DNA of 64,000 nt from Eledone cirrhosa (Eukaryota): NCBI GenBank assembly GCA_964016885.1, contig OZ024762.1:21452001-21516000 (forward strand). Direction: 5' to 3'. Of this stretch, positions 9,448-62,388 are shown piece by piece. Both the position numbers and the translations under genes were made by a program. Each line of letters starts with the position of its first letter. Position 1 is the first letter of the stretch. The notes under the pieces are model-generated. The model was given only the letters and a program-made list of their open reading frames with translations, made no database searches and was not told the DNA's origin.

Positions 9448-9575
9448 TAGGAAAATGTTCAACCCCGACGGCAGGGCTCAAGCCGTTTCGACGGTTATTT
9501 CTGGACTATTTCTGGATATATATTTAGGTTTATCCCGGGTTCAATCGGGGGCAACCACAGTCGGTAAGGTACTCG
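9448..9575 (-). mobile_element. Partial half-hammerhead family B copy followed by the 3' end of hammerhead family A
   Basis: ccccgacggcagggctcaagccgtttcgacgg, then ttatcccgggttcaatcggggg..ccacag..ggtactc, matching 61740-61780. Confidence 0.7.
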
Positions 9576-11212
9576 CAAATCTAGATTTTGGTTTAAGTTT
9601 AATATGTTGAATTGCTTCTCTGATTTGCTACTTTTACCTTTTAATTGAGATGGCTTATAATATTCAAGACAAAATCTTTGCTATATATGTGTAGACATAT
9701 ACACACACACACACACACACACACACACACACACACACATATATATATATATATATATATATATATATATATATATATATATAAACGATTATGTTAGGAA
9801 AAACAGATATAAAGCGTGTTTAAAAAACTAATTATATATTTTAAAAAACTAATTATATATTCTAACGCATGTTTCATTATCGAATTAAGCTACAAGGCCT
9901 ACAAGAGGTGTTTAAAGATATAACTGCTCCAATCACTCCCTCAAATTACATGGTTACTCAATGACTCCTGTTTGTTTATATAAATATATTTATATATATA
10001 TATATATATATATATATATATATATATATATATATATATATATATATATATATATATATATATATACACACATTTATATACTATTAAAGAAGCTTATCCG
10101 ATGATATAACCAATGAAGTAAATAGGACTAGACGTATAAAAGTGATTTTTAAATGAAATAATATGAAGTAAGATCTATATGTGCATTGAGAATTTTTCTA
10201 AAATTGTGGTCCACTGTCATTATATATATATATGTGAGTGAGTGTGTGTGTGTGTGTGTGTGTGTGTGTGTGTGTGACATAGATATATTATTACTGATTG
10301 AAATAGAAGTGATATAAAGTATTGATATCGGAAATGTTTCTTGCAATTATTTATCTTCGGTAAAACGTTAAAGGAGAAGAAAAAAGATTAAATGTAAAAA
10401 AAAAACAAAAAAAACAAGATGGAAGACGTATATCGTTTCATTGTTTCACCATGGAAGGTGTAAGAAAGATATGAAAAGACATCAACTAAACCAATTACCA
10501 TCCATTCATAGAGTTAGTACACCTCTAACGTGTGTAAGGGGAAAATGATAACTATATCATATTATGTTTGATATCATTATATATATATATATATATATAT
10601 ATATATATATATATGTATATATGTGTGTGTAGATATATATATATATACATACATATATATATATATGTATATATATATATATATACTAATAATATGTATA
10701 TAAATATTTATATATATATATACACACACACATTTATACATATATATATATATATATATATATATATATATATATATATATATATATATATATATATATA
10801 TATATATATATATATATATATATATATATACAATATTTATATATATGTATATATCCATATATAATATAACTATACAAGAAACATCCGGTTTGTTGTAAAA
10901 TGGTAGAAGATTCAGTTCCGATTCTATGACAATAGACGATCATCAATTACTTATTGTAACAGAAAATATAACGGTCCACGACTGCTTTTATGGTTGATTA
11001 GGAATATGATTGATTGTCAATGTGTATGAGATGTGTATGTGCAAGCCCGTGTGTTCGTGTGCGTATACATATATATATATATGTGTGTGTGAGTCTGTGT
11101 TTGTGTGTGTGTGTGTGTGTGTGACTGCTTGTGTGAGCATATATATATATATATATATATATATATATATATATACATATACATATACATATATATATAT
11201 ATATATATATAT

Positions 11213-11403
11213 AACGAAGGAAATGTGGTAAGGAACCAGGTGGACCATAACGCACCAAAGTACTCAATACTTAGGGTAGTAGAGTGGGTAATAGGAACAA
11301 GTAAGACCCCGACGGCTGAGCTCAAGCCGTTTCGACGGCTAATTCTGGGAATTAGCCGTTGAAACGGCTTGAGCTCAGCCGTCGGGGTCTTACTTGTTCC
11401 TAT
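11213..11403 (-). mobile_element. Family B short element with fold-back palindrome (putative Penelope-like pLTR remnant)
   Basis: ~135-bp unit plus ~55-bp inverted copy (palindrome 11291-11403), flanked by (TA)n on both sides. Confidence 0.8.
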
Positions 11404-13805
11404 ATATATATATATATATATATATATATATATATACTCCTATTGTAGGTCGACTTTGCGCTTGCCCACAGTCAAAGCTTCGATTTAACTAAGCTTCCAC
11501 TTTTATATATATATATATATATATAGTAGAATAATCGAGTATCGAAAAATCGGCGCACGAGTTCACGATAAACAAAATTCAATATGAGCGGCAGAGGGCT
11601 CCATAATTTAGATAAATCAGAGCTATAACTATACTCACCACACCACACACAGGCACTCCCACCCACACACCACACCATACACCACACACCACACCACACA
11701 CACGCACTCGCACACATTCACTGACACACACCATACACACGCACGCACGAAATAACACACATGCACACGCACTCACACCATAGCCACACCACATCCACAC
11801 CAGCTGCACACGCATACACACCACACCAGACCACACACACGCACACACCACGGCACACACACGCACTCACACACACACCACATCATACACCACACACCAC
11901 ACCACACACACGCACTCACACACACACCACATACACAGCACACCACACAGACGCACACACACACCTCACCATATCACATACATGCACTCACACACACAGA
12001 GGAAATGGTTAGTTAAATCCCGTTATTTTCTTAACTTCCATTCCTTTGTAACAAAAGTCGGCAGAACGAGGATGAAACCAGATGTTTCAATGCAAAGGTC
12101 ACAACCGTTCAGTGAAAACGCGGTATTTACTTATCATCTATTCCTCTGTGCTATGAGCGGCGTCTGAAGCCTAGCTGTAGGCAGCTTAGCTACACTGGCA
12201 TAACAGATACAAGAAGATATATTAGAACTGATGCAACCTCAGATTTGTCAAACAGTGTTAAATATAAATCAACACTGATGTCTTATTGGTTTGCTTTGCT
12301 TGTTCTGTCTAATCTTTCTAAATCTATCGTTCGCTTAAGTTTTATCACCTCTACGTAGCTTAAAGCTAGTTATTACAGTTCTTACACTAACTTTCTCTTC
12401 CATTGTTATAGGTTTACCCAAATTACTACACTATTTCAAAACTATTTTCTTATATATCTTTTTCATCAGGATGCCTTCAGCACATGGCAGTTTCCCAACG
12501 TGATATTTTCTTTATCGTTATCATCAATATCATTATCGTTATCATAACCACCACCACCAACACCATCGCTACCAATGTCTGATCACTATCAGTATCAATA
12601 CCATTATCACCTCCACTGCTATTATCGTCACTACCATCCTCACCATTATGTCTCCCATTAACGTTACCATAGCACTACTAACATTACCATAACCATCACC
12701 ACCACCACCACCACCATCATCTCTACCATTGAATCATCACTATTATTGTCATTACCATCATCATCATCACTACCACCATCATCATCACTACCATACCATC
12801 GTCATCACCACCACCATCATCATCACTATCATTACCATCACCTCCGAGTCCAACTTTCGAGGTCGATCAATATAGTACCAGTTCAATAACAGAGCAGATC
12901 ATTCTTCATTCTCGCTTTCTCCACACAAACACACTCTCTCTCTCTCTCTCTCTCTCTCTCTCTCTCTCTCTCTCTCTCTCTCTCTCTCTCTCTCTCTCTC
13001 TCACTCTCTCTCTCTCTCACCCTCTCTCTCTCCCTCTCTCTATATATATATATCTGTCTCTAACTCTTTCTCCCTCCCCCTCTCTCTGTAGGAAATTAGT
13101 TGTGTTCAAACCTAGAGTGGGATGGGCTTTGCCAAGTTTGATTGCTTTAGACATGCCGTATGTAATGAAGGCGCCCCTACGACTCCAATAGCACTTGCGC
13201 TTCGGCCATGTCATATTTTTATAACTACACGTGTACTATAAACTCAAACTATACGCACGCACATGTATCCACACACTTCATCCATCAATAGCTCTTGTGG
13301 AACGTTGCTTTCAATTTGTGTTTCAGAATGTTTTATCGTATTACGTACAAAATTTGTCGACGCCAAATTGGATGCCTTTGTAGCATCAATAGGTTTATCT
13401 TGTCAATCGCAATTGTAGCAGCCGAAATAATGTATTAGCCTGTACAATATATAGAATAGAGAACATGTCTGTGTTTATTGTAGAATAATACCGTCTTTAT
13501 CAACAATTTATTATACATTTTGCCTATAAATTTCGTTGAATTGATATTTTCTTGTCTGAACGATTAAGGATTTCTGTTTGCGTACACGTGGTTTTGAGAT
13601 CAGTTCTACTACGTGGAACTCTGATAGAAGTTATTTTACTACATCTTAATGTCAGCTGATGCGTTGTGAGGGAAATTTGGTAGACGGAAACTGTGTGAAA
13701 GTCCGTTGTTATTATATAAGTGCGACATCGACAAAGTCCACTCATATATTTCATCTCTCTCTCTCTCTCTATCTCTCTTTCTCTCTCTCTCTATATATAT
13801 ATATA

Positions 13806-13945
13806 GCAATGAAGGTGTGGTAAGATACCAGGTGGACCATAACGCGCCAGAGTACTCGATACTTAGGGTAGTAGAGTGGGTAATATAAAAAGAGTCAGGA
13901 CCCCGACGGCTGAGCTCCGGCTGATTCGACAGCTAGATCCGAACT
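13806..13945 (-). mobile_element. Family B copy (diverged, no inversion)
   Basis: ggtggaccataacgcgccagagtactcgatacttagggtagtagagtggg..gaccccgacggctgagctc. Confidence 0.8.
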
Positions 13946-14899
13946 AAAGCACACGCACACACACATACACACACACACACACACACATCCATATATATAT
14001 ATATATATACATACACACACACACACGCATATATATATATATATATGTGTATATATATATATATTCTATCCTCTGTGCTAACCGCTCCCACCAATTCACC
14101 ATCTTACATACTTACATACTTACATACTTACATACTTACATACTTACATCTGGCGTGTTGCTAGCTTAAGTCCTTATCATAACCGTAATCATGATGCAAA
14201 ATGTTTAACATATCAGGTTTTGTTTAAAACTAAACTGTAGGAAAAAAAAAGCGGGCATAAACGTTCTTTTGTTTAGTGTAAAGGATTCCTAACTTAGATA
14301 CAAGGACTTATAAAACAAACTGACGTAGAAAAGAGAAAGAAAAATTAATGCAGCAATGTGTGGGATTTTGACTGTCGGCCATATTGTTTTAGGTTCCATA
14401 TTTCATTAGGTAGGCATTAGATACAGCAGATTCTCCGTGGTAAAGATTGCTTGGAGGAAATAATAATAACTTGCATTAAAATGTTAGGAATGTTCAAGTT
14501 AAATGTATGTATATACGTACGTATATTCTATCTATCTATCTGTCTGTCTGTTTGTCCATCTGTCTCTCTGTATGCCTCCCATATATATATATATATATAT
14601 ATATATATATATATATATATATATATATATATATATACTGTATATATATATGGTGTATATATATCTATATATATCACTATATATATATTATATTTATATA
14701 TGTATACACTACATATATAGTGTATATATATATATATATATATATATATATATATATATATATATATACATATATATATGTGTGTATATATATAAATATA
14801 AGCTCACACTCATACACACACACATAAATACACACACACACATATATATATATATATATATATATATATATATATATATATATATATATATATATATAT

Positions 14900-61818: not shown

Positions 61819-61863
61819 TTCTACAGGACTAGAACTGTTTCATTCGGGAGAAATCATCAGGAA
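61819..61863 (-). ncRNA. Family A hammerhead core with adjacent inversion
   Basis: Reverse complement ttc CTGATGA tttctcccgaat GAAA cag ttctagtc ctGTA gaa; inverted copy 61862-61896 of 61805-61839; element ~61737-61897. Confidence 0.72.
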
Positions 61864-62097
61864 CAGTTCTTGTCCTGCAGAAGCCATTTCTGTATTATAT
61901 ATATATATTTATATATAATATATATATATATATATATATATATATATAATACTGTTATATATATATATATATATATATATATATATATATATAATACTGT
62001 TATATATATATATAATACTGTTAGCTTCTCGCTAAAACAATTTCTATACCTTTCATTTATATATATATATATATTTAGCCTTCATATCATGTTCTCC

Positions 62098-62168
62098 TGT
62101 TTTATCTGATGAAAACACAAATATTATTGCATGATGATGTTTGTTTTTGAAATGCGCATAATAAAATA
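62098..62168 (+). ncRNA. Type I hammerhead motif, family E-like
   Basis: tgttttat CTGATGA aaa c acaaatattatt..gatgatgtttgt tttt GAAA tgcgc ATA ataaaata; stem III is the perfect palindrome ATGCGCAT. Confidence 0.8.
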
Positions 62169-62243
62169 CATGGAACTCCTTTAACCATCTTTTGATCTTA
62201 TATTATATATATATATATATATATATATATATATATATATATA

Positions 62244-62388
62244 TAACAAAGGAATTGTGGTAAGGAACCAGATGGACCATAACGCACCAGAGTACTCAAT
62301 ACTTAGGGTAGTAGAGTGGGAAATAGGAAAAAGTATGACGCCGACGGCAGAGCTCAAGCCGTTTCGACGGCTCTTTCTGGACTAAATT
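62244..62388 (-). mobile_element. Family B copy without inversion
   Basis: Consensus match; (TA)n on both sides. Confidence 0.82.

What the first reader, a model, noticed from the sequence alone, without database searches (positions are those of the whole stretch)
9448..62388. Family B: ~10 copies of a half-hammerhead element forming long fold-back palindromes in (TA)n
A ~140-bp unit occurs at 9448, 11213, 13806, 14900, 16421, 17622, 24960, 25147, 60762 and 62244. It contains GAAA-cggct-tgagctc-agccGTC-ggggtc, which reads as hammerhead GAAA + stem III with palindromic loop + GUC, but no copy has CUGANGA upstream (ccagaa[a/t]ta instead). Seven copies carry an inverted duplicate with a different turn-around point in each, yet the inverted arm nearly always ends at the same place (..ttcctat/..ctcctat joining (AT)n). 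This suggests the inversion is remade at each insertion and resolved by microhomology with the TA target. Possible readings: a non-canonical core, a substrate half cleaved in trans, or a decayed ribozyme. The ~50-70-bp hairpins could also be dsRNA/ADAR substrates if transcribed.
Basis: partly seen in the sequence, partly recalled or inferred. Interest (0 to 1): 0.8.

Follow-up and report, generated by a model that had tools for sequence, protein, structure and literature searches.

The report
Penelope stubs cut inside complete hammerhead
These ten TA-flanked repeats are short, mostly head-to-head pieces that are most likely the ends of a Penelope-type jumping gene (a known layout), and their 'half' hammerhead is a complete, predicted self-cutting motif with an already described U-A core pair whose front half is missing here, likely because the copied RNA starts in the middle of it.

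Summary
In detail: 10 copies, 7 with an inverted duplicate, 8 of 8 short arms ending at ..CCTAT|(AT)n. The interpretation needs correcting. Contigs of public runs that are not folded back continue past window 60930. Read on the sense strand they supply the missing half: a stem I strand, the core UUGANAA (the published U3-A8 variant; N7 seen as all four bases) and a stem II strand. The motif is therefore a complete type I hammerhead with a 39-nt loop II, and no window copy reaches past that loop. The layout (head-to-head 5'-truncated arms, a tail of about 80 nt on one arm, (TA)n target) is the published footprint of endonuclease-bearing Penelope-like elements. No RT or endonuclease gene was seen, so the clade is unproven. 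TA microhomology alone does not explain the fixed arm end; it fits a second reverse-transcription start site. Inner ends cluster 18 nt upstream of GAAA, with an extra G or CC at three junctions. This likely marks a capped RNA start reached by two separately primed cDNAs (inferred). The scan reported this same picture before on other DNA of this genome. Ordinary kind, modest mechanistic interest.

The parts
9447..9516 (-). Short arm only (no tail), subfamily II; inner end at -18/-19 from G12, followed by a 9-nt re-copy of loop II sequence
11212..11403 (.). Head-to-head pair, subfamily I: long arm with tail (sense -, inner end -15) and short arm (sense +, inner end -12)
13804..13948 (-). Long arm only, subfamily III, inner end -21
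14898..15104 (.). Head-to-head pair, subfamily III: short arm (sense -) and long arm (sense +), both inner ends -18, one extra G between
16421..16555 (.). Head-to-head pair, subfamily I, joined at the GAGCTC palindrome of loop III with a small deletion; GAAA absent
17621..17822 (.). Head-to-head pair, subfamily I, both inner ends -18, one extra G between; two private variants shared by both arms
24960..25098 (.). Head-to-head pair, subfamily I, arms overlap in a 4-bp AATT palindrome at -20..-23; long arm ends early at a TA 12 nt into the tail
25146..25330 (.). Head-to-head pair, subfamily II, inner ends -18 and -17 with CC between; long arm ends at a TA 17 nt short of the usual distal end
60761..61006 (.). 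Head-to-head pair, subfamily II; longest long arm (inner end -47, through all of loop II), joined to the short arm (inner end about -32) by an A/T run
62244..62389 (-). Long arm only, subfamily II, inner end -24 joined to (TA)n
60892..60930 (-). 39-nt loop II of the hammerhead; un-inverted contigs continue beyond 60930 with the stem II 5' strand, the UUGANAA core and the stem I 5' strand
   Evidence: loose ends; pairing
60856..60891 (-). 3' half of the type I hammerhead: stem II 3' strand (60891-60884), G12-A15.1 (60883-60880), stem-loop III, U16.1-C17 (60862-60861), stem I 3' strand (60860-60856)
60901..60901 (-). Position -18: modal inner end of the family's arms; inferred capped RNA start (A of TTAGTCC in the family majority; this copy differs at -17)
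17671..17694 (-). Bulged tail hairpin ACTC-TAC..GTA-TT-GAGT, starting 5 nt beyond the internal (short-arm) end at 17700; candidate RT positioning signal
   Evidence: (centroid of 62244 copy); similar motif by eye at the 3' end of Hydra-2_Amil
17621..17699 (-). About 80-nt tail present on one arm only

Best explanation
Family B is most likely a set of short 5'-truncated ends (pseudo-LTR pieces) of a Penelope-like retroelement, or of a non-coding passenger of one, whose full-length form carries a complete type I hammerhead motif with a U3-A8 core, and whose short copies likely stop inside loop II because the template RNA begins there. Inferred mechanism: a GIY-YIG endonuclease nicks both strands of (TA)n. 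The reverse transcriptase primes from each DNA end at one of two fixed sites on the RNA, one just behind helix I (short arm) and one about 80 nt further 3' (long arm, giving the one-sided tail). Each cDNA runs to the RNA's capped 5' end 18 nt upstream of GAAA, or stops near it, and the two cDNAs are joined end to end, bluntly or through small palindromes (AATT, GAGCTC, an A/T run). An RNA that starts inside loop II lacks the 5' half of the ribozyme and could not cut itself there, which fits GUC being intact in the copies. Shown: anatomy, two fixed 3' ends, same-subfamily arms, presence of the 5' half in longer contigs, clustering of inner ends. Inferred: PLE enzymes, twin priming, the capped start. 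Untested: self-cleavage.
For: Head-to-head 5'-truncated arms with a one-sided tail in (TA)n match PMC8557442 and PMC3846280. Two RT start sites bracketing the tail, used on both DNA strands, were shown in vitro for an anole PLE (PMC11167929). Short arms end at one site in 8 of 8 and long arms at the distal site in 7 of 9; both ends recur in 1,275-1,628 reads per listed loose end in two runs. The 5' half of the hammerhead: 8 of 9 'behind' loose-end rows carry the stem II strand, and 6 of these 8 read UUGANAA with N = A, C, G or U. Stem I and II strands pair with the window half. Core and stems depart from majority at 11/254 cells versus 53/285 in loops (p = 2e-7, cells not independent). Inner ends of 15 arms: 12, 15, 17, 18 (five times), 19, 21, 23, 23, 24, 32, 47; 7 of 9 loci lie within 8 nt, p about 0.0025 with one draw per locus. 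In X1 contigs 7 of 7 listed opposite-strand joints involve 60899. The 1-nt spacer at 14900 and 17622 has no native hairpin to prime a fold-back, and an untemplated G is the known mark of a copied cap for L1/SVA (PMC3287187).
Against: No RT or GIY-YIG match among 64 ORF segments of the window, so no autonomous partner is tied to the family. The 5' half comes from 30-letter loose-end consensuses (agreement 0.71-1.0); one row reads UUGACGA and one a non-core CUGAGUU. Under the most conservative count (two independent draws per locus) the clustering of inner ends is not significant (p 0.21-0.24). The -18 mode rests on 3-4 loci. The reference copy has a mismatch at -17 that itself stops alignments at 60899, and RAD reads end at AATT sites, so the read joints are biased. 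Core and stems are no more conserved than the rest of the tail (11/254 vs 25/368, p = 0.22). The short arm of 60762 is closer to the 25147 long arm (3/53) than to its own (5/53). The tail (about 80 nt) is twice the 30-40 nt described. PMC3846280 explains such palindromic junctions by self-priming, not twin priming.
Confidence: 0.7

Rival explanations
1. Same PLE-type element, but the inverted arm is made by fold-back (self-priming) of a single cDNA after RT stalls in the structured stem-loop II; the second arm then runs back to the internal site.
For: Arms are near-symmetric (loops of 0-9 nt in 6 loci) and share private variants in 4 of 6 loci. Three junctions use self-complementary microhomology (AATT at 24960, GAGCTC at 16421, A/T run at 60762). 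PMC3846280 favours self-priming.
Against: 0-1-nt turns at -18 have no native hairpin. A short arm exists alone at 9448. Fold-back does not by itself explain why the copied-back arm stops at one TA of several.
Confidence: 0.2
2. First reader's trans-substrate or decayed-ribozyme reading: the element is designed as, or has decayed to, a half hammerhead, and the short-arm end is set by TA microhomology.
For: No window copy holds the 5' half; all outer ends join at TA.
Against: Longer contigs hold the 5' half in cis with a free N7; the 3' half is conserved; 8 of 8 short arms use one of 11 TA sites.
Confidence: 0.05
3. A DNA-transposon MITE or fold-back element with terminal inverted repeats that moves as a palindromic unit.
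For: Long inverted arms flanked by TA; two loci share one junction sequence.
Against: Five different junction types; arms of unequal length; three single-arm copies; the two loci with the same junction belong to different subfamilies; hammerhead motif on one strand.
Confidence: 0.03

Closest known systems
Insertions of endonuclease-bearing Penelope-like elements: inverted 5'-truncated pLTR plus one-sided tail (PMC3846280, passages; PMC8557442, passages and section 11)
   Same: Head-to-head truncated arms, palindromic junction, tail on one arm only, hammerhead near the 3' end, (TA)n target.
   Different: No ORF linked here; tail about 80 nt instead of 30-40; copies only 60-250 bp and stop inside the ribozyme.
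Poseidon_Ac (PAc) in vitro, two internal RT start sites bracketing the tail (PMC11167929, parts 1-2 of 4 read)
   Same: Two fixed 3' ends; uncleaved hammerhead junction in the copies; AT-rich target.
   Different: Shown biochemically there, only inferred from copy ends here; inverted junctions were not addressed in the parts read.
U3-A8 hammerheads of Cercyon PLEs in Schistosoma mansoni and palindromic-loop-3 PLE hammerheads (PMC4209133, parts 1-2 of 4 read)
   Same: U3-A8 in place of C3-G8; type I topology; G-C next to the core in helix II; palindrome in loop III.
   Different: Here a 5-bp helix III with a 9-nt loop, a 39-nt loop II and a bulged, extended helix I, rather than a minimal motif.
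Hydra clade PLEs, e.g. [quoted passage not shown]
   Same: (TA)n target; a similar bulged hairpin CTC-TAC..GTA-TT-GAG behind the hammerhead in Hydra-2_Amil (by eye).
   Different: All 26 Hydra-clade rows of the supplement's table have a CUGA core and a short loop 2; family B's GAAAC motif was not found in the supplement; no protein to place it.
Non-LTR retrozymes (bioRxiv 10.64898/2026.07.22.740005, parts 1-2 of 5 read)
   Same: Non-coding type I hammerhead repeats tied to PLEs.
   Different: Defined as head-to-tail tandems of complete units; the window copies are dispersed, head-to-head and incomplete.

Membership tests
EN+ Penelope-like element | ORF with telomerase-like RT and GIY-YIG endonuclease | tested here: inconclusive
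   No hit among 64 of 82 candidate ORF segments of the window (63 from the list plus one added); no whole genome held; sequence beyond the 30-letter loose ends not readable.
EN+ Penelope-like element | Inverted 5'-truncated copy head-to-head with the direct copy | tested here: met
   7 of 10 loci.
EN+ Penelope-like element | Tail at one end only (two fixed 3' ends) | tested here: met
   7 of 7 pairs have one short and one longer arm; 8 of 8 short arms end at one site; length about 80 nt, longer than described.
EN+ Penelope-like element | Hammerhead motif on the sense strand near the 3' end | tested here: met
   3' half in the window, 5' half in contig loose ends of 4 runs.
EN+ Penelope-like element | Partial-tandem pLTR-ORF-pLTR unit | not testable with these tools
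Hydra clade PLE | RT/EN signature motifs (RWK, DKT, CxCX5C, no CCHH) | not testable with these tools
   No linked protein.
Hydra clade PLE | (TA)n insertion and hammerhead with canonical core | tested here: inconclusive
   (TA)n met; core is U3-A8, whereas 26 of 26 listed rows have CUGA.
Type I hammerhead ribozyme | Core with a 3-8 pair, G5 A6 N7 A9, G12 A13 A14, A15.1-U16.1, H17 | tested here: met
   UUGANAA in 6 of 8 readable rows, all four bases at N7; GAAA 35/36 and GUC 30/30 cells at majority.
Type I hammerhead ribozyme | Helices I, II and III around the core | tested here: met
   4-bp proximal plus 5-6-bp distal helix I, 6-bp helix II (motif pairing only); helix III 5 bp. The whole motif was not folded as one sequence.
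Type I hammerhead ribozyme | Self-cleavage after C17 | not testable with these tools
   Needs an in vitro assay.
MITE (DNA transposon) | Fixed terminal inverted repeats and one shared internal junction | tested here: not met
   Five junction types, unequal arms, three single-arm copies.
Non-LTR retrozyme | Head-to-tail tandem units each with a complete hammerhead | tested here: not met
   No such tandem among the 10 window copies; the rest of the genome was not examined.

The most novel reading that the evidence does not exclude
The element places its transcription start inside loop II of its own U3-A8 hammerhead, so the 5' copy of the ribozyme is switched off by being transcribed as a half. 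The abundant palindromic stubs are paired run-off cDNAs, one primed from each end of the cut (TA)n at two hairpin-positioned start sites, joined at the capped RNA end. The genome would then record, thousands of times, how PLEs make their inverted ends and one-sided tails.
Probability: 0.45. Interest if true: 0.55.

Novelty: new member of a known kind. Interest (0 to 1): 0.3.

Why it matters
What remains useful is mechanistic. How Penelope-like elements form head-to-head inverted ends is still open (PMC8557442 says so; PMC3846280 proposes self-priming on an antisense template). A very abundant family whose arms stop at one base with a possible cap mark gives a direct test between twin priming on sense RNA and fold-back. 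The scan has already noted this on many other pieces of the same genome, so this window adds a further example rather than a new idea.

Tried and rejected
Rfam scan of the window at gathering thresholds: only a tRNA-like match at 27707-27764, no hammerhead. No whole genome is held, so copies could not be collected genome-wide. Pattern scans: metagenome contigs 0 hits twice, viral contigs 0. Sequence look-up of earlier findings: nothing. No RNA holder listed among 18 runs, so expression, small RNAs and A-to-I editing could not be examined; this blank is no evidence either way. Differences between the two arms of 6 loci are 19 in all, 3 of them A/G, with no editing-like excess. The sharp read ends at 60906 and 60770 in the RAD runs lie on AATT sites and were rejected as likely restriction-digest ends, not element ends. 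An early idea that an intron splits the ribozyme (branch-point-like CTAAT upstream of GAAA) was dropped once the 5' half appeared directly after 39 nt. A type II reading with the core downstream of GUC was rejected by inspection (nearest match CUAAGUA, two core mismatches). An apparent compensatory change in the AGCCGT/ACGGCT hairpin at 13806 is explained equally well by CpG decay and was not used. A TATA box about 29 nt upstream of -18 appears in only one loose-end variant and was not used. Folds of truncated copies are no more stable than shuffles (z -1.1 to +0.8). Summed contig depths were not turned into copy numbers. Literature searches for PLE plus twin priming gave 2 unrelated listings, for octopus plus hammerhead 2 listings, for U3-A8 only PMC4209133. 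These cover only the held open-access library. PMC7151607 passages gave no rate for a U3-A8 core. Supplements of the bioRxiv preprint were not seen; those of PMC4209133 and PMC11167929 were not opened and may list further variants.
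Full report
Setting. The window is animal genomic DNA, 33% G+C, packed with (TA)n, (CA)n and (TC)n tracts. No whole genome is held for it. Its commonest interspersed repeat reminds me of an octopus SINE; that label is recalled and comes from no call.

1. Observation. A blastn of two copies against the window finds exactly the ten sites named, as 17 arms. 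Seven loci have two arms. I call 'sense' the strand that reads GAAA-stem-GUC. In every pair the arms point outward, 3' ends in (TA)n and truncated 5' ends meeting in the middle. Eight of eight short arms end at ..CCTAT. Seven of nine long arms end about 80 nt further on; 25147 and 24960 end at other TA sites. In two RAD runs of the best-holding organism about 19,400 and 20,100 reads lie on a 164-bp copy. (TA)n loose ends appear at both the internal site (1,590 and 1,622 reads at 60844; 1,628 and 1,275 at 60850) and the distal site (1,283 and 1,391 at 60775), so both ends are family-wide (437 further loose ends not shown).

2. The missing half. No CUGANGA...GAAA hit falls in a family B copy. 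The longest arm (60762) reaches 47 nt upstream of G12 before turning. Laying contigs of four runs on 60884-60945 showed un-inverted records that match to 60930 and then continue with a shared sequence: 29 contigs in X1, 3 in X4, 2 in X5 and 1 in X7 at that place, plus four smaller rows nearby (11 of 13 rows shown). Of nine rows that lie behind the match, eight carry the same next motif and one runs into (TA)n. On the sense strand that motif is a C-run, then a 7-nt core, then GUUCGGCUA. Six of the eight cores read UUGANAA, with N seen as A, C, G and U; one reads UUGACGA and one a non-core CUGAGUU. N7 is the free position of the hammerhead core (consensus quoted in PMC7151607, passage), and U3-A8 in place of C3-G8 is a published PLE variant (PMC4209133). 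CGGCUA pairs with the window's UAGCCG (helix II, 6 bp; G-U in subfamily III), CCCC with GGGG after GUC, and AGGAA or UAGGGA with UUCCU(A) at the short-arm end. So helix I has an internal bulge, and its base coincides with the internal end. In ten loci the core and stems depart from majority in 11 of 254 cells, the loops in 53 of 285 (p = 2e-7, cells not independent), but the rest of the tail is as conserved as the core (25/368, p = 0.22). The motif is therefore a complete type I hammerhead shape with a 39-nt loop II. Cleavage is untested, and I checked pairing motif by motif rather than folding the whole.

3. Is the inversion remade each time? Three subfamilies are visible. Both arms belong to the same one in 7 of 7 loci (chance about 8e-4). 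The own long arm is the nearest neighbour of the short arm in 5 of 7, ties in 1 and is third in 1. Four of six testable loci have variants shared by both arms and by no other copy. Junctions are of five types: a 1-nt G spacer (14900, 17622), CC (25147), a blunt 3-nt loop (11213), 4-6-bp palindromic overlaps (24960, 16421) and an A/T run (60762). This rules out a MITE with fixed repeats. Gene conversion between arms cannot be excluded as a source of arm similarity.

4. Why a fixed short-arm end? There are 11 TA sites between GUC and the distal end in copy 11213, one of them 10 nt nearer than the one used. Microhomology alone would scatter the ends. The published PLE 'tail' is an optional extension on one arm (PMC8557442 passages; PMC3846280 passages), and in vitro it corresponds to two RT start sites used from both target strands, with uncleaved RNA as the main template (PMC11167929). 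Five nt beyond the internal end lies a conserved bulged hairpin (1/56 and 3/72 departures in its strands; centroid fold of the 62244 copy, though the 17622 stretch folded differently). Its 3' strand is shared with other families in the window and resembles the 3' end of Hydra-2_Amil. The Hydra lead and the hairpin idea came from earlier scan notes; I checked only the hairpin behind the internal end, not a second one beyond the distal end.

5. Why do copies stop in loop II? Inner ends of the 15 arms that hold G12 lie at -12, -15, -17, -18 (five), -19, -21, -23, -23, -24, -32 and -47 (the two arms of 16421 lack G12 and are left out). With one draw per locus, 7 of 9 within 8 nt has p about 0.0025 and three at one base p about 0.03; with two independent draws per locus neither is significant (0.21, 0.24). 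The three loci at -18 come from three subfamilies, and each has an extra G or CC that reads as G on the sense strand of one arm. An untemplated G is attributed to copying of the cap in L1 and SVA insertions (PMC3287187, passages). The base at -18 is the A of TTAGTCC, which fits the initiator consensus YYANWYY (recalled). Penelope's promoter and start lie inside the pseudo-LTR (PMC2377424, passages). In the reads, 10 of 13 listed opposite-strand joints, and 7 of 7 in the X1 contigs, involve 60899 (-16), but the reference's own mismatch at -17 and AATT digestion bias this (6 joints not shown). The reading that the RNA starts inside the ribozyme I took from earlier notes before testing it here. 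A 0-1-nt turn without a native hairpin is hard to make by fold-back and easy to make by joining two cDNAs that ran off the same RNA end. I put twin priming to a capped start ahead of self-priming, with moderate confidence; the evidence is 3-4 loci.

6. Comparison and novelty. The footprint is that of endonuclease-bearing PLEs. Membership is not proven, since no RT or GIY-YIG match was found in 64 ORF segments and the sequence upstream of the ribozyme could not be read. The family may be the 3' end of a coding element or a non-coding passenger. It is not among the Hydra hammerheads tabulated in the supplement of PMC8557442 (26 rows, all CUGA). The window holds at least nine other hammerhead-like cores, two with U3-A8, so such stubs are commonplace here. 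Earlier scan notes on other pieces of this genome describe the same layout, the U3-A8 core and the start-inside-the-ribozyme model; these are unchecked AI notes and not independent support. Verdict: real feature, new member of a known kind, interest 0.3.

Noticed in passing
window 8450 (+) and 18601 (+): Two further hammerhead-like motifs with a U3-A8 core (UUGAAAA, UUGACAA), a short helix II and GAAAC-CG-GUA, the 2-nt palindromic helix III type.
   Followed up: partly
window 16690-16835, 22676-22823, 61738-61907, 9528-9575: Family A: PLE-type stubs with a CUGAUGA core, the same GUAUUGAGUAC tail motif, one inverted short arm (61860), and at 22676-22694 three slipped repeats of the 5'-terminal TTCCTGA.
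   Followed up: partly
window 9447-9575: A family B short arm, a 9-nt re-copy of loop II, a short TA run and then a family A tail fragment in the same orientation: either serial template jumping or two insertions into one TA tract.
   Followed up: no
window 18098-18292, 22508, 41707, 46259, 60582-60720: Other hammerhead-core repeats with longer helix II, next to TA tracts.
   Followed up: no
window 15250-15819 and 52021-52513: A 490-bp repeat (93% identity) with a C2H2 finger (PF00096, E 4.8e-5, below the curated cut-off); at 15250 it is fused to a PLE-type tail piece, possibly a captured LINE end.
   Followed up: partly
window 27707-27764 (-), repeated at 56277-56491: tRNA-like Rfam match inside a 220-bp repeat present twice, probably a SINE head.
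   Followed up: no
window 62708-63160 (-): 150-aa reading frame resembling the C-terminus of a LINE ORF2 (recalled; no Pfam hit).
   Followed up: no
window 17161-17281 and about 12 other sites: Very abundant SINE-like repeat, often in partial tandem.
   Followed up: no
window 60840-60930 (-): In the truncated RNA a GGCUA inside loop II can replace the missing 5' strand of helix II in the predicted fold.
   Followed up: no
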